A stretch of DNA of 25,992 nt from a virus, in IMG/VR virus record IMGVR_UViG_3300025736_000003. The stretch is one strand, 5' to 3'. This document shows positions 1-25,992 of this stretch, one piece after another. How positions within the stretch are numbered: position 1 is the first letter of the stretch; every line of letters starts with the position of its first letter. Made by a program: the position numbers and the translations under genes. A model generated the notes under the pieces. It saw only the letters and a list, made by a program, of their open reading frames with translations. It was not told where the DNA came from and ran no database searches.

Positions 1-127
1 TGTGTATAACCCTATATCCTTCCTTCTCAGCATACTTTTTACAATATTCCTTCTGCTGTGCTATATTTTGTTGCTCGTCGTCTGTAGAGATTCTAGTGTA
101 TATTATTGCTTCCTTAACCATAAATTA
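1..127. repeat. Terminal overlap identical to 25866-25992 (circular-assembly signature); contains the first 121 nt of the recombinase gene
   Basis: Base-by-base comparison of the first and last 127 nt shows 100% identity. Minus-strand translation of 121..1 gives MVKEAIIYTRISTDDEQQ..., the same N-terminus as the CDS at 25489..25986. Confidence 0.9.
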
Positions 128-1682: not shown

Positions 1683-1975
1683 TTGACCTTGACCTTGACC
1701 ATGACCTTGACCATGACCCTGACCCTGACCCTGACCCTGACCCTGACCATGACCATGACCTTGACCCTGACCTTGACCCTGACCCTGACCATGACCCTGA
1801 CCCTGACCCTGACCCTGACCCTGACCCTGACCCTGACCATGACCCTGACCCTGACCCTGACCATGACCATGACCTTGACCCTGACCTTGACCCTGACCCT
1901 GACCATGACCCTGACCCTGACCCTGACCATGACCCTGACCATGACCTTGACCCTGACCTTGACCCTGACCATGAC
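1683..1975. repeat. Tandem hexanucleotide array (C/T/A)TGACC, about 49 units, with a higher-order duplication
   Basis: Direct reading shows a perfect 6-bp period with variation only at unit position 1. A block of about 65 bp recurs at roughly 1748 and 1863. All frames are open across it, which explains the four ORF-track entries here. Confidence 0.9.
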
Positions 1976-4481: not shown

Positions 4482-4578
4482 TAGAACAACTAGAACAACT
4501 AGAACAGGTGATGTCCACTCAATTCTACATATGGAAAGTAAGTGGGGTTTGCCTGTTCTTCTTGTTCTACCTGTTCTA
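4482..4578. promoter_or_regulatory. Inverted arrays of AGAACA(A/G) repeats (3 + 3 copies) around a 43-bp spacer: candidate origin or operator
   Basis: Three tandem tagaacaac/tagaacagg units at 4482-4508 and, on the opposite strand, cctgttct/tcttgttcta/cctgttcta at 4552-4578. The right arm overlaps the last codons of the primase-helicase gene. Confidence 0.45.
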
Positions 4579-6189
4579 TTTGATAATTTCACCCTTAAAT
4601 TTAATTCCAACCCATGCCCTTCCCTTCTTATTTATATCCCATGGAAGATATTTTAATTTCTGTTCAATCCCTAATTGTTTCATTTTACTACCAATTACTA
4701 CATCTGAAATTTCTCTAAACCTATTTTCTTTACACCATTCGTTTAACTTTTTAGAAAAATCATTTTTCCATACTACACCATCAGAGTCTTCTTCTGTAAA
4801 TTCTTTAAGGAATTTTTCTAAAGGATTACTATGATCCTCATATTTTTTCATTCTATCTTCAATTGTACCTTCATTAGTAAATTCTCTTTTCTCTAATAAA
4901 TCTTTTAATATTAAAGAACATTTAACAGTTAGTGCTTCATATTCCTCATCTGGTATCTCAGATAATATATCTTTCTTTTCTGAAAATTGGTTTGGAAAAT
5001 CTATAATCATCCATCTTCTATAAAATCCAATAGTTTTATCATTTGTGGCTGGAAGATTATTAGTAGCAATCATTATTTTAGCATAATTAATTTCTTCAAA
5101 AGGATCTTTATTTTTATACTCAAACCCTATTAAATCTCCACCTGATAATTTCTTTAAGATAGAAGTTTTATTCATTTCTGAAAAATTAGTTTCTCCCATT
5201 TGACAAACTAATTTTTTATGTAATCGGGTAACCTCAAATCTACTTTGTAATAAAGTATCTAATTCTGTTGAACAGCAATTACTGCCCCCAATAAATTTCC
5301 TGAGTAAATTTAAGAAACAACTTTTACCATTCATACCACCACCAATAAAACAAAAGATTCTATGGATAGGATAATCTGGAATTAAACAATATGCTAATAT
5401 TTCATATAAGGTTTGAACGTGATCCTTCCCAACCCATTCCTCAAATATTTTGTCCATTATGGGAGTTTCATAAAATCCATCTTCATTTAATTTCCATGGT
5501 ATTGGATTAGTAACAAATAGATGTGGTGTTGCCCTTGATTGCTCCCCTGTCTTAATATTCATTATAGTATTTTCAAATTGAACTGTATATTTTCCTATTG
5601 GGGCCGGAATATTTAATCTACTTACTTGTTTAAGAGCTTCAATCATCTCATTTTTTTCCTTAGAATTTATTGTGTTTATTGTTGCTTGTTTATCAACTGC
5701 ATTTAATATATCAGTTTCATCTACTCTTTCCCATTTTGTTTCTGGCCAATTCCATAACCACCAACTTCTAGAATTATCATATAAACAGGGTTGTATTTCA
5801 ATAATATGTTCTGCTAATTCTTTTTTATCGAACATATTCCCAAGTTTTTCTGTTAAATTTTCGACAGGATAATTTTTCTTTTCATTTTCTTCAATAGTTC
5901 TTTTTTGTTTTTTAAAATAATTTAATTGTTCTTTAAGAAGAGTAATTTTTCTACCAGTTTTTTTAGATAAAATTTTTAACGCATCATCTATTTCTAAAGG
6001 GGACAACCCTAAGATATTTTTTAACTCTTTTATTACTTCATCTGACGATGATATTTTTATTTTTTTATCATTTATTAATTCAATAAATCCGTTATCAATA
6101 TATTCCTGTTCATCCCCTCCTGGAAAACTCGCCTCTTTTATCTCTCCAGCTTTCCCACCAGCATAATTTTTTAATATTTTAATTTTCAT
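4576..6189 (-). CDS. D5/P4-family primase-helicase (SF3 helicase domain), 537 aa
   Basis: D5_N-like segment with SRSWWLWNWPETKW. Walker A FIGGGMNGKS (the GxGxNGKS form typical of P4-type primase C-terminal domains), motif C IMIATNNLP, and YRRWMIIDF as an arginine-finger region. Confidence 0.8.
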   Translation of the reverse strand: MKIKILKNYAGGKAGEIKEASFPGGDEQEYIDNGFIELINDKKIKISSSDEVIKELKNILGLSPLEIDDALKILSKKTGRKITLLKEQLNYFKKQKRTIEENEKKNYPVENLTEKLGNMFDKKELAEHIIEIQPCLYDNSRSWWLWNWPETKWERVDETDILNAVDKQATINTINSKEKNEMIEALKQVSRLNIPAPIGKYTVQFENTIMNIKTGEQSRATPHLFVTNPIPWKLNEDGFYETPIMDKIFEEWVGKDHVQTLYEILAYCLIPDYPIHRIFCFIGGGMNGKSCFLNLLRKFIGGSNCCSTELDTLLQSRFEVTRLHKKLVCQMGETNFSEMNKTSILKKLSGGDLIGFEYKNKDPFEEINYAKIMIATNNLPATNDKTIGFYRRWMIIDFPNQFSEKKDILSEIPDEEYEALTVKCSLILKDLLEKREFTNEGTIEDRMKKYEDHSNPLEKFLKEFTEEDSDGVVWKNDFSKKLNEWCKENRFREISDVVIGSKMKQLGIEQKLKYLPWDINKKGRAWVGIKFKGEIIK

Positions 6190-20100: not shown

Positions 20101-20787
20101 AGGTAATCCAAACCTGATAGTTTCTCCTGGTTGTTTAGATTCTATGATTTCTTTTGCTTTCCTTAAATCCTGTGCAACAATACCTATTGGAGTTTCTCCA
20201 AGTGATGGGAGTTTCTCTCTTAATGGAACAACTAATTTTTCTCTGAATGTAGAGACACCCTTCTTAACTACTTGAGTAACATCTACTTGTTTTGGTTTTC
20301 CTGTTTTAATTCTAGCAACCTTACTAACAACTTTCTCAACCACACCTTTTTCCGGTGCAGCTTTTACCTCACCAGTAGTACCTGATTCTGCTCTGGCGGT
20401 TTTACCGGCCTGTGAAACCTCAGCTCTTTCTCTCGCTAAAATAATATTTCTTGAAGATGATTCTGAAGATAAAATTCCTGACTGTTTATTTTGTCTTTGT
20501 AGTTCTTCTATCCTCTGTTGTCTAACTGTAACAAGTTCAGCTCTTTTTTGGTTCTCAGCCTGTACCCTCACAGCTTCTTGTTGTTGTCGTGATGCTTGGC
20601 TTTGCCTATCTAAAGCTTCTTGGGAAATAGATTGTCTTCCCCTAGAACTCCTACCTCTACTTGAGCTACTACCACTTGAAATACCTGATTCTTTTACTGG
20701 GCCTTTATAATTTGGTGCAATTATCTTTAACTTTTTTGCAGCATCTTCTCTACTTTTTTTTAATGTTCTTTCAAACTGACTAGCCAT
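17134..20787 (-). CDS. Giant charged protein with long internal repeats (1217 aa), putative virion/structural or scaffold protein
   Basis: Internal protein repeats FREKLVVPLREKLPSLGETPIG / FREKVVVPLRETLPSLGDTPIG and RFGLPGQIRDVEVSKLQ / RLGLPGQIRDVPISKFQ, mirrored at DNA level (about 20090-20230 versus 19560-19860). Lys/Gln/Glu-rich, no TM segment. Confidence 0.6.
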   Translation of the reverse strand: MASQFERTLKKSREDAAKKLKIIAPNYKGPVKESGISSGSSSSRGRSSRGRQSISQEALDRQSQASRQQQEAVRVQAENQKRAELVTVRQQRIEELQRQNKQSGILSSESSSRNIILARERAEVSQAGKTARAESGTTGEVKAAPEKGVVEKVVSKVARIKTGKPKQVDVTQVVKKGVSTFREKLVVPLREKLPSLGETPIGIVAQDLRKAKEIIESKQPGETIRFGLPGQIRDVEVSKLQNLSPLSFGGKIVAGEVGLASKDIAKTFEKEVVIPLSESKVFRAVEKEFITPISEFGVQPIISGVESGVGAFREKVVVPLRETLPSLGDTPIGQIAEAKRIIDRQLKEFSSLTEAVLQEGLSQEDFSLKLSQFKAGGGTVTEVKEGDTTTFQLGGGPTVRLGLPGQIRDVPISKFQGEGLIGFGKEIFLGEVEQSFTDILKSDIPGIEKKAGFEKRAEFGGKAVRVGTELLGFTLPGAFVGEVAAKGLEAQVGKGAFGGPESFFDFAVENPLEVGLAIGVGSRGIVKAIKAGRVKKLQEFVSIPERKALILETRIAKETSKLKITKPRLEISKVDDLSKSIVSSKTKGRILETQFIPEARQTGKVIELRKIGKKLQKFEGFAEVAGDGVLKETIKFGDITKITEVTKGGKGTVKLFKKGKSIFEQSLNKGDLPELKFLKSKVDKLKIDKQFGQPGVTFNELIVKSGDKVKKSSKLTDDVGDLILSDKPVSLRSKLVTGEFESTTLVGRDISKGIKQTIQKEKSFLDIIQVSERKGLIKRVGSKGNIQIRRRIAQEIEFGVDKTFDQTLFGQVGKQKLLTKVITPNIQRDITAFSGQRTTTLFINPASKELKALQKAGSKVVKARKLKVDVIDRALAREQFDDVVKSLTSSQESKIAARKGQITDFFSKTKPTKQIQEQIPVPSKFAFGEELNLPRTTFVQPTEEILKVPSVSGGAAPFIPGLEISGTRDSLGLGGLGIASLLNGKQEVSVTDVPIQIIQPKLSQSFNLDINSILGVKVAQLKKISSRADSRLVSKQFQQPVEKVISRVIQRQDQKLNQKQLQRQLQRQQFAQPNIIGFGGFPQPPQPRPPKIIGKINIIFPPIIPKTPSTKTPRVGFGVQIRRGGEFFNVGSFRTQRQAFEFGKRVTSKTLAATFRLSSPGKTPKAPKGFREKDTPLGKLFIERRSKRLSKKTETIEIQAAKRKAPKKKTKSTKKKK

Positions 20788-21137
20788 CAATAAACTCTAA
20801 CTAAAAATGTTTTCCCATAATCTTTCGTAACCCACGTTCTGGATTCTATTAAAGAATAAATGTTATCACCATCTTTTAATTTAATTCCTGTATCAATATC
20901 ATTTTTTTGTGGTTGTCTTGAAAAAGTATTTGGTGCTAATCCTAACTTAATCAAACCCACATAATTATTATTATCACCAATATCAATCTTTATATTATCA
21001 AAATCAACAACATCTTTATTATGCTCAACAGCACCATAGATTCCTACAAAAGAACCAATTAATAATACAGATAAGATAGCCGCCACCGAGTATAAAACTT
21101 TAGGGTTGTTTAATAATTGTTTTACTTCTTTATCCAT
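20787..21137 (-). CDS. Small membrane-anchored protein (about 116 aa)
   Basis: I placed the start at the ATG at 21137 (MDKEVKQLLNNPKVLYSVAAILSVLLIGSFVGIYGA, with an N-terminal TM or signal anchor). The track start at 21158 is a GTG lying inside the upstream repeats. Confidence 0.45.
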   Translation of the reverse strand: MDKEVKQLLNNPKVLYSVAAILSVLLIGSFVGIYGAVEHNKDVVDFDNIKIDIGDNNNYVGLIKLGLAPNTFSRQPQKNDIDTGIKLKDGDNIYSLIESRTWVTKDYGKTFLVRVY

Positions 21138-21139
21138 TT

Positions 21140-21175
21140 GCGTTACAGCGTTACGCACTTGCGTTACAGCGTTAC
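21140..21175. promoter_or_regulatory. Four GCGTTAC heptamers (two 15-bp direct repeats) immediately upstream of the ATG at 21137: candidate operator
   Basis: gcgttacagcgttac at 21140-21154 and again at 21161-21175, lying between a TATA-like AT box and the start codon. Confidence 0.45.
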
Positions 21176-21206
21176 ACTAATTAAGAATTATTACTATTTA
21201 AATATA

Positions 21207-21350
21207 TCATTTCTTTGATTCATCTATTAGAATCCATTTTGTAAGAAACTCATTAATAATTGGTGATAACTTTTCTCCTTCCTTTAATCTTCCTAATACT
21301 GTTTCAACAATATCATCTTCTAGTGCTAATGAATATTTCTTTAATGTCAT
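21207..21350 (-). CDS. Ribbon-helix-helix (CopG/Arc-like) small regulator candidate (47 aa)
   Basis: Manual translation MTLKKYSLALEDDIVETVLGRLKEGEKLSPIINEFLTKWILIDESKK: a short N-terminal beta-strand segment followed by two helices, in the usual RHH layout. Sits directly upstream of the GCGTTAC repeats. Confidence 0.4.
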   Translation of the reverse strand: MTLKKYSLALEDDIVETVLGRLKEGEKLSPIINEFLTKWILIDESKK

Positions 21351-21406
21351 ATCTTAATTAGCAAAGCAAAGTTTAAATACTTACTTACTTACTAATTAAT
21401 GTAAAG

Positions 21407-21859
21407 ATGGCGATGGATGATAATAAAGAAACTACATTTAATGAAGCAGTTTTGAAGATGCAAAGGATTCATATTCTACAACAAGAAATTAATCTACTTA
21501 GAATTAATCTACTTGCATGGAATCTTGAATATAGTAAATATAACTATGATGTTGTAATATCTGATTTAATAAGTTTATGTTATGAGGTTAGGCCTCTTAT
21601 GAAAATAGAGGAAAGAAATGAATTTAGTTTGCTTAAGGAGTTAGTTGATGATTTAATATCATACAAACCTATATTTAAAAAAATTAATACTTCTAATTTC
21701 TCAGGTAAAAATAATAATGAAAGTATCGACACTAATAATTGGAATATGTTAAGGGGTGTTATATTTAAATTTGAGGACTTTGCTAGGGATCAAGTTGATA
21801 TACATGGGCTGTCTGCTCCAAAGAAAAAGGATGCCTCTAGGGCTGCGGTTGATCTATAA
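21407..21859 (+). CDS. Hypothetical protein (150 aa)
   Basis: First gene of the plus-strand block; its stop overlaps the next start (TAATG). Confidence 0.5.
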   Translation: MAMDDNKETTFNEAVLKMQRIHILQQEINLLRINLLAWNLEYSKYNYDVVISDLISLCYEVRPLMKIEERNEFSLLKELVDDLISYKPIFKKINTSNFSGKNNNESIDTNNWNMLRGVIFKFEDFARDQVDIHGLSAPKKKDASRAAVDL

Positions 21860-22872
21860 TGAAATTCTTAGAAAAAGAGTTCCCAAAGGGTTCGTTCCCA
21901 AAACAACAAACAGATGGTGCATATATAAATCAAACATTAGCAGATAACTTAAATGTATATGCTAAACAGATTGTAAAAGATATGCACTTCTTAATAATTA
22001 TATCAGGTAACGACGCTGTTGGAAATGGTAAATCTACTTTGGCAACACATGTTGGTGCATACTTAACTAATAAAATAAATGAATTACATGGTATAAATAA
22101 TACCTTCACTTCTAGCAATGTTGCACTAAGGGCGAAAGATTTAGTTAAGCAAAGTTTTGATAACCCACAATACTCAGTTAATGTTTTAGATGAGGGTGAC
22201 GATTTAACAACTCATGGTATGAAGCAATCTGCAGTTGAGCTTAAGAGATACTTCCGTAAATGTAGGCAACTAAATCAAATCTTAATATTAATATTACCAT
22301 CCTTCTTTGAACTCCCAAAATTCTATGCATTAGCAAGAAGCCATTCTTTAATTAATGTTAAATTTCATGGAGAGTTTGAGCGTGGTTCATTCGATTTCTA
22401 TGGACCAAAGAGTAAAAAGAAATTATATTTGAAAGGAAAAAGAGAGTGGGATTATGACGCTGCATCTCCAGACTTCTATGGATCTTTCTTCTCTACTTAT
22501 ACCTTCTTCCCTGGCTTGAATGATGAGATTGCTGCTTATAAAAAGAAGAAGTATACTGATATGATTGATGATGCTGATGAGGATCACACACAACTATCAC
22601 CTATACAAGTAGAACGAATGTTAAAGGCTAAATTGTTTAAGCAGGTGTATAATAATATCCCCAATATTACTATACCCATATTGTCTAATGCGTTTGGCGT
22701 ATCAAGTAGGACTGGTGATAGATATTTATCCAACGAATATGACGAAAAAATAAAAATCCTAAAACACGAAATCGACGCCCCGCCGACTAATACTAATAAT
22801 ACCATAAGGGATTTGGATGATGTGGTGAGTCCAGAGAAGCATCCAGGGGTTATAGTAAGGACTATTAGTTAG
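21859..22872 (+). CDS. P-loop NTPase with C-terminal HTH-like segment (337 aa), AAA+/DnaA- or IstB-like architecture
   Basis: Walker A GNDAVGNGKST around residues 51-61, Walker B VNVLDEGDD around 108-116, and a C-terminal ITIPILSNAFGVSSRTGDRYLS helix-turn-helix-like segment. Confidence 0.6.
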   Translation: MKFLEKEFPKGSFPKQQTDGAYINQTLADNLNVYAKQIVKDMHFLIIISGNDAVGNGKSTLATHVGAYLTNKINELHGINNTFTSSNVALRAKDLVKQSFDNPQYSVNVLDEGDDLTTHGMKQSAVELKRYFRKCRQLNQILILILPSFFELPKFYALARSHSLINVKFHGEFERGSFDFYGPKSKKKLYLKGKREWDYDAASPDFYGSFFSTYTFFPGLNDEIAAYKKKKYTDMIDDADEDHTQLSPIQVERMLKAKLFKQVYNNIPNITIPILSNAFGVSSRTGDRYLSNEYDEKIKILKHEIDAPPTNTNNTIRDLDDVVSPEKHPGVIVRTIS

Positions 22873-22989
22873 TAGTTAAACCCAATCAAATAAAGATAGT
22901 TACATTGTAACACAGTGAACGCACCTTTATAATAAAACTTTCTTATATAGTATTATGTTTATAACTAAATTCTCAAAGGAGGTTTTAAA

Positions 22990-23304
22990 ATGAGAAACAA
23001 TAAGAAAGGACAGAGTGCTAATATTGGTGCAATGATAGGAGGTATTATAGGTTTGATATTTCTAGTTGTTGTAGGATTTGTATCTTTAGATATTTTGACT
23101 GGTGCTGGATTGCTAACAAGTGATTCTGCATTTGATAATGCTACAGATAGATTAGTTGGTAATCTGACGGCTGGTGTAGACAAGGTATCTGTAAAGATTC
23201 CAATAATGTTTACTATCACTGTAGCTGTTCTATTACTTGGATTGATTGTATTCCTTGTCATCAGGGCAAGACAAGCACAGCAAGTTCAAGGCGGAACTAT
23301 TTAA
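22990..23304 (+). CDS. Small hydrophobic two-helix protein (104 aa), candidate major virion/membrane structural protein
   Basis: Canonical AGGAGG 8 nt upstream of the ATG, preceded by TATA-like boxes. Two hydrophobic segments (IGAMIGGIIGLIFLVVVGFV and IMFTITVAVLLLGLIVFLVI). Confidence 0.5.
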   Translation: MRNNKKGQSANIGAMIGGIIGLIFLVVVGFVSLDILTGAGLLTSDSAFDNATDRLVGNLTAGVDKVSVKIPIMFTITVAVLLLGLIVFLVIRARQAQQVQGGTI

Positions 23305-23329
23305 ATTTAGAAATAAATTTAAGCTACAT

Positions 23330-23417
23330 TTGAGATGACAGATCCTGCTGGGGTAAACTCACGAGCATCCGGCGGCATCTCAAAAAGTGCGGGGGAAACC
23401 AAACTGGCATCCGCACT
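23330..23417 (+). other. GC-rich island with two stable hairpins (possible structured RNA or terminator-like element)
   Basis: ttgagatg (23330-23337) pairs with catctcaa (23376-23383), and agtgcgg (23386-23392) pairs with ccgcact (23411-23417). Local GC is far above the surrounding sequence; no U-tract follows. Confidence 0.35.
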
Positions 23418-24105: not shown

Positions 24106-24796
24106 TAACTAATCCAGTCCCTCCTGAACAAATAGAATCAACATGACCCAGTGCTCTCATAATAGGTTCTTGTGCTTCTGCAAGTGCCCTTGCAGCTTCA
24201 GATAATTCTCCTCCAATAACTCCTATTTGTTCTAACATAAACCATATACCTGCAAACAAAATTATTAAAACAAAACCTCCCATTATCCAAGAACCATACC
24301 TATCCATAAAAGTTATCTTAGGGCCATAATTTTCTGCAGCATTTTTTCTCATAGCGACGCTAACATATTTTATGTCCCTATCAACCATTTCAATATCTAA
24401 CGTACCCATTTTTGCATCTAAATCTCCCAAAACAATATTATACCACCCACCATCTTGGCCAATAGCAAACCAATATTTATTTGATCCCATCTTTTTACCG
24501 TAGGCAGTTAGTGGCATCTTCTTTTTTCTAAGCCAAAAAACCTCAGTACCATCTTTACTTAATCTTAAATATTTTGCAGTATCGTTCATGGTGTTTTGCC
24601 AACCCTGCCCAGAGATATTTTCAAACACAGCTATATTAAATTTGTATAATTTCTTATTAAAATACCACCAAATAATTGCGGCCGCTATTCCAAGCATTAC
24701 AATAACAGCGAAGCCAACCATAAGATAAATACCCCATGCCGAATTAGCCATACTCGGTAAATCTATCCCGGTTTCCATTCCTGCAACTGTCCCCAT
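24098..24796 (-). CDS. Membrane protein (232 aa, 2 TM)
   Basis: Hydrophobic helices near residues 20-45 and 175-195; GGAAGG about 12 nt upstream. Confidence 0.55.
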   Translation of the reverse strand: MGTVAGMETGIDLPSMANSAWGIYLMVGFAVIVMLGIAAAIIWWYFNKKLYKFNIAVFENISGQGWQNTMNDTAKYLRLSKDGTEVFWLRKKKMPLTAYGKKMGSNKYWFAIGQDGGWYNIVLGDLDAKMGTLDIEMVDRDIKYVSVAMRKNAAENYGPKITFMDRYGSWIMGGFVLIILFAGIWFMLEQIGVIGGELSEAARALAEAQEPIMRALGHVDSICSGGTGLVSA

Positions 24797-24936
24797 TAAT
24801 AATTATCCTTCCTTTGTTTTTCTTCTTTAATTAATCTCATAAAAAAATCTTCCCATGTTTCCCCATTCTTAACATCTATTGCTAAATTGTGTTGATCTCT
24901 CGAAAGAGGAATATGCACATATCTTACATCACCCAT
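24796..24936 (-). CDS. Small protein (46 aa), possibly RHH-like
   Basis: Manual translation MGDVRYVHIPLSRDQHNLAIDVKNGETWEDFFMRLIKEEKQRKDNY; its stop overlaps the next start (TAATG). Confidence 0.3.
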   Translation of the reverse strand: MGDVRYVHIPLSRDQHNLAIDVKNGETWEDFFMRLIKEEKQRKDNY

Positions 24937-24956
24937 AATTATTAGTAAGTTAGTTA

Positions 24957-25088
24957 CTATTTAAACTTTGTGTTATGTAGTTTTTTATCGAGTGCATTCT
25001 TTAATATTTTAGTTGATATAAAATAAATTAATATTTTTAAAGAGATAACCACTGCTGCTGCTAAAAATATTTTTATCCAAAAATTCAT
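24957..25088 (-). CDS. Tiny membrane protein (43 aa)
   Basis: Manual translation MNFWIKIFLAAAVVISLKILIYFISTKILKNALDKKLHNTKFK; ATGA overlap with the upstream ORF. Confidence 0.3.
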   Translation of the reverse strand: MNFWIKIFLAAAVVISLKILIYFISTKILKNALDKKLHNTKFK

Positions 25089-25264
25089 TGTATATATGTT
25101 TTCCTTTTCCACGACTTCCAGCAACGTCTATGAAAAATCATACCACTCTTTTTAGTTTTCTTATCTTCTTTCCTTATGGGTTTTCCACAGGCTACACATT
25201 TTCTTAAATTTGGATCATCCATCTCAATCTTTCTTTGAACAGCATCCTTAAACCATTTAAACAT
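25085..25264 (-). CDS. Small basic zinc-ribbon-like protein (59 aa)
   Basis: Manual translation ...RKCVACGKPIRKEDKKTKKSGMIFHRRCWKSWKRK; start overlaps the stop of the AbrB-like ORF. Confidence 0.35.
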   Translation of the reverse strand: MFKWFKDAVQRKIEMDDPNLRKCVACGKPIRKEDKKTKKSGMIFHRRCWKSWKRKTYIQ

Positions 25265-25430
25265 TTTGATTCTCCAATATTAATTTATTACCAGAAAAAT
25301 CAAAATTAATTATAGATCCCTTACCTGCACATAAAACTTTCTCAACCATCCACTCCGGAATAGTAAGTGTATAACGCCCAGAATGATATTGTAATTTCAT
25401 GTTTTTATATTGTTTTTTGTTTGTCGCCAT
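25257..25430 (-). CDS. AbrB/SpoVT-like small DNA-binding protein (57 aa)
   Basis: Manual translation MATNKKQYKNMKLQYHSGRYTLTIPEWMVEKVLCAGKGSIINFDFSGNKLILENQNV fits the swapped-hairpin AbrB/MazE pattern. A TTTATATATAA box lies about 28-38 nt upstream of the ATG with no SD, as in a leaderless-type promoter. Confidence 0.4.
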   Translation of the reverse strand: MATNKKQYKNMKLQYHSGRYTLTIPEWMVEKVLCAGKGSIINFDFSGNKLILENQNV

Positions 25431-25488: not shown

Positions 25489-25986
25489 CTAAATCTTCTT
25501 ATTTCTTCCAACCGCACCTTTCTTCCGGCCCTTATATTTCCCTTCAGCTTTTGCCCTAGCTATACCAACTGCTCTCTTTATATTAAGATTATCAATATAA
25601 AAAGCATTCATAGCCATTTTAATTCTAAAAGTGAACTTCCCCATAGGATTAACTAAATCAACCATCTCAGATAAAGATTTAATAATAATATTATTTTTAA
25701 TAACAAAACGTTCAAACCAAACGCTATCATAAAAATCTCTGCAAATCCTATCAACATCCTGAACAATTAAATGTACTGTTGGGTTCTCCTCTAAAAACTT
25801 TAACATCCTTTTACCGCCGCTTCGTTCACAAACATTTATCTTACCACTAATCTTATCTCCAATGGTGTGTATAACCCTATATCCTTCCTTCTCAGCATAC
25901 TTTTTACAATATTCCTTCTGCTGTGCTATATTTTGTTGCTCGTCGTCTGTAGAGATTCTAGTGTATATTATTGCTTCCTTAACCAT
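25489..25986 (-). CDS. Small serine recombinase (resolvase/invertase catalytic domain), 165 aa, no obvious C-terminal HTH
   Basis: N-terminal YTRISTDDEQ motif with Arg10/Ser12 arranged as in resolvase/invertase active sites, and a DRICRD motif around residue 80. The protein stops at ...KGRKKGAVGRNKKI, where the HTH domain of typical resolvases would start. Confidence 0.75.
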   Translation of the reverse strand: MVKEAIIYTRISTDDEQQNIAQQKEYCKKYAEKEGYRVIHTIGDKISGKINVCERSGGKRMLKFLEENPTVHLIVQDVDRICRDFYDSVWFERFVIKNNIIIKSLSEMVDLVNPMGKFTFRIKMAMNAFYIDNLNIKRAVGIARAKAEGKYKGRKKGAVGRNKKI

Positions 25987-25992
25987 AAATTA
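25866..25992. repeat. Terminal overlap, second copy (identical to 1-127)
   Basis: Identical 127-mer at both window ends, implying a unit length of 25,865 bp. Confidence 0.9.

What the first reader, a model, noticed from the sequence alone, without database searches (positions are those of the whole stretch)
21140..21350. RHH-like ORF followed by four GCGTTAC repeats abutting a start codon
A 47-aa ORF with a ribbon-helix-helix-like layout sits directly upstream of two 15-bp direct repeats that end 2 nt before the ATG of the first gene in the long structural operon. That is the position expected for a repressor operator controlling the operon. A related near-palindrome, gttacattgtaac (22899-22911), lies upstream of the 104-aa hydrophobic protein gene.
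Basis: partly seen in the sequence, partly recalled or inferred. Interest (0 to 1): 0.55.

Follow-up and report, generated by a model that had tools for sequence, protein, structure and literature searches.

The report
Conserved operator repeats at viral promoters
Four copies of a short symmetric DNA word (GTWAC) sit at the predicted transcription start of a probably archaeal virus's long structural-gene operon and are conserved across its relatives, so they look like a genuine on/off switch, but most relatives keep the switch without the neighbouring 47-aa ribbon-helix-helix gene proposed to bind it.

Summary
Window 21140-21154 and 21161-21175 are two perfect 15-bp direct repeats, 21 bp apart. 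They end 2 nt before the ATG (21137, minus strand) of the first gene of a ~20-kb co-directional gene array.

The functional unit is GTWAC-N3-GTWAC. It occurs exactly three times in this 25.9-kb circular genome: twice here, starting 27 nt after an archaeal-type TATA box, and once 5 nt upstream of the TATA box of the capsid-like gene.

Both sites are conserved in register across the divergent relatives that keep this gene layout (ten lineages for the operon site, eight for the capsid-gene site). Repeat identity is about 0.8 against about 0.45-0.55 in the spacers. A/T flips at the centre of the pentamer mark a dyad-symmetric double-stranded DNA site.

Seven of the ten lineages keep the repeats but have no 47-aa gene at that position.

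Best reading: this is a repressor operator shared by the structural-gene promoters. The binder is unidentified, and p47 is only one candidate. It is a new member of a known kind, of moderate interest.

The parts
21161..21175 (-). TATA-proximal 15-bp repeat GTAACGCTGTAACGC. It holds two GTWAC pentamers 8 bp apart and covers the predicted transcription start (about 21173).
   Evidence: It starts 26-28 nt after the start of the TATA box in all ten lineages compared. G1, T2, A4 and C5 are nearly invariant.
21140..21154 (-). ATG-proximal 15-bp repeat, identical to the first and 21 bp (two helical turns) from it. It ends 2 nt before the ATG at 21137.
   Evidence: The 21-bp spacing is kept in 8 of 10 lineages.
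21195..21202 (-). TTTAAATA, an archaeal-type TATA box for the long minus-strand gene array.
   Evidence: It is conserved as TTTAAATA, CTTAAATA or TTTATAAA at a fixed distance in relatives. Its role as a TATA box is inferred.
21207..21350 (-). p47, a 47-aa ribbon-helix-helix protein gene (coordinates include the stop codon). It is an accessory gene, present in 3 of 10 lineages.
21372..21379 (.). Symmetric TATA element TTTAAATA/TATTTAAA. It is placed about 25 nt before the p47 ATG and about 31 nt before the p150 ATG, so both mRNAs would be leaderless or nearly so.
   Evidence: The function is inferred from position.
20787..21137 (-). First gene of the array, a 116-aa small membrane protein. Its sequence turns over between lineages (93, 82 or 113 aa).
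22899..22920 (+). Second site, GTTACattGTAACacaGTGAAC. It has two perfect units and one degenerate 8-bp-spaced unit, and it ends 5 nt upstream of the TATA box of the capsid-like gene, over the BRE position.
   Evidence: An equivalent element of 2-3 units lies in the same register in L001, L003, L004, L014 (degenerate), L015, L016 and L020.
22926..22933 (+). TTTATAAT, the TATA-like box of the 104-aa gene. GGAGGT lies about 6 nt before the ATG.
   Evidence: The role is inferred.
22990..23304 (+). 104-aa protein with two hydrophobic helices, here called the capsid-like protein. It is the second regulated target.
   Evidence: The family shows 83% mean column identity, and the gene is duplicated in tandem in three relatives. 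The capsid role is inferred by analogy with spindle-shaped archaeal viruses (PMC10866085).
24796..24936 (-). p46, a small core protein whose sequence pattern could be strand-helix-helix. It is an alternative candidate binder and is found in every lineage with enough DNA held.
   Evidence: No Pfam, PDB or profile-profile support for an RHH fold was found, so the fold rests on the sequence pattern only.

Best explanation
**What it is.** The repeats are a protein-binding operator on double-stranded DNA. It controls the promoter of the long structural-gene array, and the capsid-like gene promoter carries a second copy.

**Anatomy.** The recognition unit is the dyad-symmetric pentamer GT-W-AC. Pentamers come in pairs spaced 8 bp apart (GTWAC-N3-GTWAC). 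At the operon promoter two such pairs lie 21 bp apart, on the same face of the helix.

**Position.** The array starts 27 nt after the start of the TATA box. It therefore covers about +1 to +36, including the predicted transcription start.

**Mechanism (inferred).** A small dimeric DNA-binding protein most likely occupies each pentamer, giving cooperative pairs of dimers in the manner of RHH repressors on tandem short boxes. TBP and TFB could still bind, but RNA polymerase recruitment or promoter escape would be blocked. The structural genes would stay off until the factor is titrated or inactivated.

**Second site.** The same factor would bind next to the BRE/TATA of the capsid-like gene and co-regulate it.

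**Who binds.** The factor must be available in every lineage that keeps the site. It is therefore more likely a core viral protein or a host protein than p47. p47 is a lineage-specific RHH gene inserted between the two divergent TATA boxes, and it may bind these sites in this lineage (about 0.3).

**Shown:** the repeats, their significance, their conservation and register, the RHH fold of p47, and the patchy distribution of p47.

**Inferred:** the TATA and transcription-start assignment, an archaeal host, the direction of regulation, and the identity of the binder.
For: **The motif is rare and sits only at promoters.**
- Exact GTWACNNNGTWAC occurs 3 times in the genome, all at promoters. With one mismatch allowed there are 9 matches against 2.0 expected, and 0 of 100 shuffles reach 9.

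**Phylogenetic footprint at the operon promoter.**
- Across 8 gaplessly alignable lineages, pairwise identity is 0.85 and 0.81 in the two repeats. It is 0.45 in the TATA-to-repeat spacer and 0.57 between the repeats.
- The downstream gene and the upstream spacer turn over while the repeats persist.
- The distance from TATA box to first pentamer is fixed at 26-28 nt in ten lineages.

**The site is double-stranded DNA.**
- Pentamer position 3 flips between A and T at orthologous positions, while G1, T2, A4 and C5 stay nearly invariant. GTAAC is the reverse complement of GTTAC. This is the signature of a symmetric duplex site, not of an RNA or coding constraint.

**The second site is conserved.**
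- A matching element lies in register with the TATA box of the capsid-like gene in seven other lineages, eight with the window.

**Swapping the early module leaves the operator intact.**
- L004-L007 have swapped the p150-ATPase module (22% and 31% identity) but keep the operator. They also keep the capsid-like protein (88%), p46 (65%), p59 (76%) and p47 (79%). This argues against p150 or the ATPase as the binder.

**The promoters look archaeal.**
- TATA-like boxes lie 25-32 nt (box centre to ATG) before several start codons, as in archaeal leaderless promoters.

**Precedents.**
- Archaeal viral RHH regulators bind repeats at promoters. SvtR binds with highest affinity at a structural-gene promoter, and F55 binds tandem repeats (PMC5569661).
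Against: - There is no binding or transcript data. The transcription start is only predicted from the TATA position.
- The host domain is unproven. Two scans of species genomes found no provirus, and the sigma-70 scan gives a 10/12 bacterial-type match over the capsid-gene site.
- The 36-nt leader would lack a Shine-Dalgarno sequence, whereas the capsid-like gene has a strong one.
- The site upstream of the capsid-gene TATA box could equally mean activation.
- No candidate binder could be tied to the motif by covariation. The core of the motif hardly varies, and the predicted DNA-facing strand residues of p47 (positions 5, 7, 9) and of p46 are not invariant.
Confidence: 0.62

Rival explanations
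1. The adjacent 47-aa RHH protein is itself the repressor that binds the four GTWAC sites, and the capsid-gene site, and so controls the structural operon.
For: - p47 has an RHH fold and is under purifying selection.
- It is encoded 31 nt upstream of the array.
- RHH dimers typically bind short tandem or symmetric boxes cooperatively (PMC5569661; MetJ 8-bp boxes and omega heptads from general knowledge).
- In the mosaic L004 lineage p47 stays with the operator side while the early module is replaced.
Against: - Seven of ten lineages keep the operator without p47 at this locus, including L019, whose ATPase is 84% identical to the window's.
- No p47 homologue is found in the 10-14 kb held for those lineages.
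- Other p47-family genes are not associated with the motif.
- There is no GTWAC pair in p47's own promoter, whereas the characterised archaeal viral RHH regulators repress their own promoters.
- The putative DNA-facing strand residues differ (K/E at position 5, S/P at position 7) among three lineages that share the same operator core.
Confidence: 0.3
2. The GTWAC pairs are late-promoter elements bound by an activator, which switches on the structural genes, rather than by a repressor.
For: At the capsid-like gene the site lies just upstream of BRE/TATA. From general knowledge, that is where archaeal activators act. Both targets are structural or late genes.
Against: At the operon promoter the whole array lies downstream of the TATA box and over the predicted start in all ten lineages. 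That position is typical of repression.
Confidence: 0.15
3. The repeats are replication-origin iterons, or binding sites for the P-loop ATPase encoded next door, in the divergent intergenic region.
For: - Direct repeats lie in an AT-rich divergent intergenic region beside a P-loop ATPase (337 aa).
- By eye, the ATPase C-terminus could hold a helix-turn-helix; no search supports this.
Against: - The motif keeps a fixed register to TATA boxes at two separate promoters.
- L004-type genomes replace the ATPase (31% identity) but keep identical repeats.
- A better origin candidate exists. Three 9-bp TAGAACA repeats and three inverted copies flank a 45-bp spacer at 4482-4578, beside the primase-helicase gene.
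Confidence: 0.06
4. The repeats act in the mRNA leader, as a translational operator or stability element, rather than on DNA.
For: If the start is at about 21173, the whole 36-nt leader is made of the repeats. It abuts the ATG and has no Shine-Dalgarno sequence.
Against: - The A/T flips convert GUAAC to GUUAC, which are different RNA words but the same duplex site.
- The second site lies upstream of its TATA box and would not be in that gene's mRNA.
- By inspection, the repeats have no self-complementarity that could form a stem.
Confidence: 0.05

Closest known systems
[quoted passage not shown]
   Different: - The SvtR site is an imperfect inverted repeat about 80 nt upstream of TATA/BRE, and SvtR also represses its own promoter.
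- Here the site is a set of direct 8-bp-spaced pentamer pairs at the transcription start.
- No site is seen at the p47 promoter, there is no sequence similarity, and binding is untested.
F55 of Sulfolobus spindle-shaped virus 1
   Same: It is an RHH regulator of a spindle-shaped archaeal virus that binds tandem direct repeats at several viral promoters (PMC5569661).
   Different: The F55 repeat is an 11-bp unit (ATAGATAGAGT), a different motif in a different genome context. p47 is not detectably homologous.
MetJ met-boxes and omega (pSM19035) heptad operators, the bacterial RHH paradigms
   Same: - Short boxes repeat every 7-8 bp, with one RHH dimer per box and cooperative contacts between neighbours (general knowledge; Schreiter and Drennan 2007, cited in PMC5569661).
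- The 8-bp spacing of a symmetric core here matches the MetJ geometry.
   Different: These are bacterial systems with a different sequence. Here only two adjacent boxes form a block, with two blocks 21 bp apart. Protein-DNA stoichiometry is unknown.
Putative Nitrosopumilaceae spindle-shaped viruses (NYMAG-47 group, PMC10866085)
   Same: They have a comparable gene kit and size: 27-38 kb, a two-helix hairpin capsid protein with a long turn, an ATPase, a Zn-binding protein, a methyltransferase and an RHH gene. They come from marine and saline metagenomes.
   Different: - The UViG identifiers differ from the relatives found here.
- The four exact motif variants searched (each with its reverse complement) are absent from the published genomes.
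- Relatedness was not tested at the protein level.

Membership tests
Ribbon-helix-helix (RHH / MetJ-Arc-CopG) superfamily, for p47 | [quoted passage not shown] | tested here: met
   - AF2 with a 16-sequence alignment gives pLDDT 80, residues 1-11 extended, and helices at 12-21 and 28-46.
- Foldseek found nothing, and a 2-sequence AF2 model was poor.
Ribbon-helix-helix superfamily, for p47 | A significant sequence match to a curated RHH family | tested here: not met
   - p47 has no Pfam, PHROG or NCBIfam hit.
- Among 16 family members there are only sub-threshold hits: CcdA at E 0.0018 in one member and DUF6364 at E 0.008 in four.
- PDB sequence searches were empty of RHH hits.
Ribbon-helix-helix superfamily, for p47 | A G-x-S/T/N turn that N-caps helix 2, and alternating hydrophobic residues in the strand | tested here: inconclusive
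   The family consensus is ...NYSVTLE...G.KLSPIIN.LL..W, with S29, P30 and N33 invariant. The Gly-to-Ser spacing is longer than the canonical motif. The strand alternation (Y6, L/V8, L10) fits.
Ribbon-helix-helix superfamily, for p47 | Dimerisation and sequence-specific DNA binding through the paired strands | not testable with these tools
   This needs EMSA, footprinting or a complex model.
Repressor operator at an archaeal promoter | A conserved site overlapping TATA/BRE or the transcription start | tested here: met
   The array starts 26-28 nt after the TATA start in ten lineages. The second site ends 4-5 nt before the TATA box in eight lineages. The footprint is 0.8 against 0.45-0.57. The TATA and transcription-start assignments are inferred.
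Repressor operator at an archaeal promoter | Co-occurrence of the operator with its cognate regulator gene | tested here: not met
   This was tested for p47. The operator is present without p47 in 7 of 10 lineages. p46 co-occurs wherever enough DNA is held, but its fold and function are unsupported.
Replication-origin iterons | Repeats unique to one locus, linked to the initiator gene and independent of promoter register | tested here: not met
   There are two loci, each in register with a TATA box. The repeats persist when the neighbouring ATPase is replaced.

The most novel reading that the evidence does not exclude
GTWAC-N3-GTWAC marks a structural-gene regulon shared by a whole uncultured family of circular dsDNA viruses of about 26 kb, probably archaeal and possibly spindle-shaped. 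An unrecognised core factor, for example the 46-aa protein encoded ahead of the conserved 232-aa membrane protein, would read it. The 47-aa RHH would be a movable add-on, inserted between the two divergent TATA boxes, that plugs into the pre-existing operator. It might act as an extra immunity or carrier-state repressor, or as an anti-repressor competing for the same sites.
Probability: 0.2. Interest if true: 0.55.

Novelty: new member of a known kind. Interest (0 to 1): 0.4.

Why it matters
Regulation in viruses of mesophilic archaea is almost unknown. The few characterised archaeal viral regulators come from hyperthermophile viruses. This finding gives:
- a precisely defined, phylogenetically footprinted cis element at two promoters of a dark viral genome;
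- a short list of small candidate binders;
- clear point mutations to test.

It would allow a direct experimental entry into early/late or carrier-state control in this virus group. It also shows a regulator gene being gained or lost next to a stable operator. It does not reveal a new principle, because RHH-type control of structural genes through promoter repeats is established.

Tried and rejected
**Database searches that gave nothing useful**
- Pfam, PHROGs and NCBIfam on p47, p46, p57, p150, the ATPase and the capsid-like protein gave no informative hits.
- INPHARED searches by DNA and by protein gave no match.
- Rfam and tRNA scans gave nothing near the site.
- PDB sequence searches for p47, p46 and the capsid-like protein found no meaningful hits.
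- Foldseek on the p47 model found no hits.
- Cluster look-ups returned no names or organisms.
- A literature search for the motif string found nothing.

**Host identification**
- Two scans of 185,579 species genomes, one with the ATPase and one with the capsid-like protein, found no provirus. The host remains unidentified.

**Ideas tested and rejected**
- p46 as a paralogue of p47: BLASTP and hhalign show no similarity.
- The fifth GCGTTAC at 2003-2009 as a related site: it lies in a coding region.
- GTWAC avoidance or restriction-site logic: the pentamer is not depleted (51 against 38 expected).
- The GTG at 21158 as the true start, which would put the repeats inside the gene: the extension is not conserved in frame or sequence among relatives.
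- One-mismatch motif hits inside coding regions (5220, 8645, 17348, 19176, 20067): treated as chance.
- The hit at 24945-24957, downstream of the p46 TATA box: it matches a general promoter class, not the operator.
- Autoregulatory sites in the p47 promoter: no conserved site found.

Full report
**1. Observation**

The + strand carries GCGTTACAGCGTTAC at 21140-21154 and again at 21161-21175.
- The heptamer GCGTTAC occurs 5 times in the window against 0.53 expected.
- Four copies are here. The fifth (2003-2009) lies in codons 2-4 of an ORF and is unrelated.
- TRF reports a period-21 array at 21130-21175.

Read on the minus strand the order is:
- the stop codon of a 47-aa ORF (21350..21207);
- 4 nt;
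- TTTAAATA (21202..21195);
- 19 nt;
- GTAACGCtGTAACGC aagtgc GTAACGCtGTAACGC aa ATG (21137).

That ATG opens a 116-aa membrane protein, the first of about 20 kb of co-directional genes. GTTACATTGTAAC is at 22899-22911, upstream of the 104-aa hydrophobic protein gene.

**2. Genome context**

The first 127 nt of the window equal the last 127 nt, so this is a circular genome of 25,865 bp. GC content is about 31%.

Recognisable genes:
- a P4-type primase-helicase (DUF5906/D5_N);
- a serine recombinase;
- a C5 cytosine methylase;
- Laminin_G_3 and beta-helix proteins in the long array.

Nothing matches known phages or archaeal viruses in INPHARED.

A divergent unit (p150 at 21407-21859, then a P-loop ATPase at 21859-22872) is followed by the 104-aa two-helix protein. 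That gene has a strong GGAGGT and is duplicated in tandem in three relatives. This fits an abundant capsid protein of the kind seen in spindle-shaped archaeal viruses (PMC10866085). That role is an inference.

Several start codons lie 25-32 nt downstream of the centre of a TTTAAATA-type box (p150, p47, p46). This is the pattern of archaeal leaderless promoters. I therefore treat the host as probably archaeal. Two scans of species genomes found no provirus, so the host is unproven.

**3. The 47-aa ORF**

- It has full-length homologues at 79% (P0002, loci L004-L007) and 72% (L014) identity in the same position. pN/pS is 0.30-0.48.
- A profile search of 1.8 billion representatives found a family of 47-70 aa proteins with the consensus MVKKNYSVTLE..VV..A...L..G.KLSPIIN.LL..W.
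- With that alignment AlphaFold gives pLDDT 80, an extended N-terminus (1-11) and helices at 12-21 and 28-46.
- Sequence-level membership is not met: there is no Pfam hit for p47, and only sub-threshold CcdA and DUF6364 hits in relatives.

The RHH reading of the ORF is supported by fold, not by sequence.

**4. What the repeats are**

Scans with the ATPase as bait retrieved relatives from IMG/VR and JGI metagenomes, and look-ups of exact proteins added contigs from ENA, Logan and NCBI assemblies.

*The operon promoter.* Ten distinct lineages share the layout of a divergent p150 gene and a minus-strand array. In all ten the intergenic region contains a TATA-like box. 26-28 nt after its start come pairs of GTWAC pentamers 8 bp apart (9 bp apart in L026). 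In eight lineages there are two such pairs, 21 bp apart. The start codon follows 1-12 nt later.
- Pairwise identity is 0.85 and 0.81 in the two repeats. It is 0.45 in the TATA-to-repeat spacer and 0.57 between the repeats.
- The encoded first protein changes between lineages (116, 93, 82 or 113 aa).
- Within the pentamer G1, T2, A4 and C5 are nearly invariant. Position 3 flips between A and T at orthologous sites.
- GTAAC is the reverse complement of GTTAC. This flipping marks a dyad-symmetric site read on duplex DNA. It argues against an RNA or coding explanation.

*Genome-wide count.* Exact GTWACNNNGTWAC occurs only three times in the genome: 21142, 21163 and 22899.

*The capsid-gene promoter.* The third copy continues as a degenerate third unit (GTGAAC) and ends 5 nt before TTTATAAT. 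Seven other lineages have the same arrangement of 2-3 units in the same register to their TATA box.

**5. Mechanism**

With the TATA box centred at about 21198.5, initiation is expected near A21173 (a T-A step), inside the first pentamer. The array then spans about +1 to +36. A protein array there would leave TBP and TFB free to bind. It would block RNA polymerase recruitment or escape, which from general knowledge is the common archaeal mode of repression.

The geometry suggests one dimer per pentamer, paired cooperatively, with two pairs on one face of the helix:
- the core is symmetric;
- units are spaced 8 bp apart;
- blocks are 21 bp apart.

This resembles MetJ on 8-bp met boxes or omega on heptads (general knowledge; omega is a top structural hit). 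Archaeal viral RHH proteins SvtR, AvtR and F55 also act on promoter repeats (PMC5569661).

At the capsid-like gene the site abuts the BRE. That position is compatible with occlusion of TFB or with recruitment. I favour co-repression of both structural units.

**6. Who binds?**

*Against p47:*
- It is present only in the window lineage, L004-L007 and L014.
- L001/L017/L018, L015, L016, L019, L020, L021 and L026 keep the TATA box and repeats in a divergent intergenic region of 106-127 bp (p150 ATG to operon ATG) with no ORF. L019's ATPase is 84% identical to the window's.
- A p47-family HMM finds no copy in the 10-14 kb held for the p47-less lineages (L015, L020, L032-L035). Those genomes are not complete, however.
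- p47-family genes in unrelated elements (next to recombinases, L027-L031) lack the motif.
- p47's own promoter has no GTWAC pair.
- Its putative DNA-facing strand positions vary (K/E, S/P) between lineages with the same operator.

*Against p150 and the ATPase:*
- The L004 lineage has swapped p150 and the ATPase (22% and 31% identity). It keeps the operator, the capsid-like protein (88%), p46 (65%), p59 (76%) and p47 (79%).

*The p46 candidate:*
- The only small protein found in every lineage with enough DNA is p46 (24936..24796).
- Its pattern (VRYVHIPLS - helix - G.(S/T)W - helix) could be RHH-like.
- No search supports that.

The binder is therefore unidentified. I put p47 at about 0.3.

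**7. Rivals**

- *Origin iterons.* This is unlikely. The motif sits at two promoter-registered loci. It also persists when the ATPase is replaced. A better origin candidate exists at 4482-4578, next to the primase-helicase.
- *RNA leader element.* The A/T flips and the untranscribed second site argue against it.
- *Activator site.* This is possible for the capsid-gene promoter but not for a site over the transcription start.

**8. Novelty**

No paper contains the motif. The virus group is undescribed or at best loosely similar to the NYMAG-47 group, whose published genomes lack the motif variants searched. The regulatory logic is a known kind, namely viral RHH-type control through promoter repeats. 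This is a new member of a known kind, with a well-defined and testable cis element and an instructive gain or loss of a regulator gene beside a stable operator. Interest is moderate (0.4).

Noticed in passing
window 1-127 and 25866-25992: The first 127 nt are identical to the last 127 nt. The window is therefore a circularly assembled complete genome of 25,865 bp.
   Followed up: yes
window 4482-4506 and 4552-4578: Three direct 9-bp repeats (TAGAACAAC/TAGAACAGG) are followed, 45 bp later, by three copies in inverted orientation. They lie in the 155-nt gap just downstream of the primase-helicase gene. TAGAACA occurs 13 times against 5.5 expected. This is a candidate replication origin or another operator.
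   Followed up: partly
window 1684-1975: A hexanucleotide tandem repeat of about 49 copies (GGTCAG/GGTCAT/GGTCAA on the minus strand) raises local GC to 45%. In the frame coupled to the upstream gene (ATG 2013) it encodes a 111-aa (SG/SW/SR)n low-complexity protein. The other two minus-strand frames would encode (GQ/GH)n and (VR/VK/VM)n repeats.
   Followed up: partly
window 23329-23417: A GC-rich island with two stable hairpins lies just downstream of the capsid-like gene (MFE -33.1 kcal/mol, z = -2.5). It has no Rfam or tRNA match and is absent at the same place in L001. It may be a terminator or a small RNA.
   Followed up: partly
window 21372-21406 and 24937-24965; L015, L016, L020 equivalents: The promoters of p150 and p46 share nearly the same TATA-to-ATG sequence within each genome (window: TTTAAATA + sTwACTwACTTACTAAT). 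That sequence differs between genomes, so the two promoters co-vary. This suggests a second, co-regulated class of leaderless 'early' promoters.
   Followed up: partly
window 24796-25430: A run of small genes precedes the conserved 232-aa membrane protein.
- p46 has a possible strand-helix-helix pattern.
- A 55-aa protein is a membrane protein.
- p59 is a Cys/His zinc-ribbon protein, conserved in L003, L004 and L015.
- p57 has an AbrB/SpoVT-like look (RYTLTIPEWMVEKV) by eye only. No Pfam hit supports it, and no homologue was found in other lineages.
   Followed up: partly
window 25489-25986; L001 6004-6648; L015 8217-8918: The serine recombinase here is only 165 aa: a catalytic domain plus a short basic tail, with no recognisable C-terminal DNA-binding domain. 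Relatives encode versions of 214-233 aa.
   Followed up: no
L004-L007 versus the window: The relatives are mosaic. The p150-ATPase module is only 22% and 31% identical, while the flanking p47, operator, capsid-like gene, p232 and p46 are 65-88% identical. This implies replacement of the early module by recombination at or near the divergent promoter region.
   Followed up: partly
L004 5797-6421; L016 2354-2982; L020 6075-6703: The capsid-like 104-aa gene is duplicated in tandem in three lineages.
   Followed up: no
L027 44-765; L031 415-1417: Distant members of the p47 family lie immediately downstream of a resolvase or a tyrosine integrase in other AT-rich elements. This hints at a wider role for the family as a regulator or directionality factor of mobile elements.
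   Followed up: no
L015 about 6005-6070 (upstream of its capsid-like gene), also L034: Repeated inverted TATATAGTGTACTATATA words lie just upstream of the GTTACgttGTGAAC element. They are not seen in the window.
   Followed up: no
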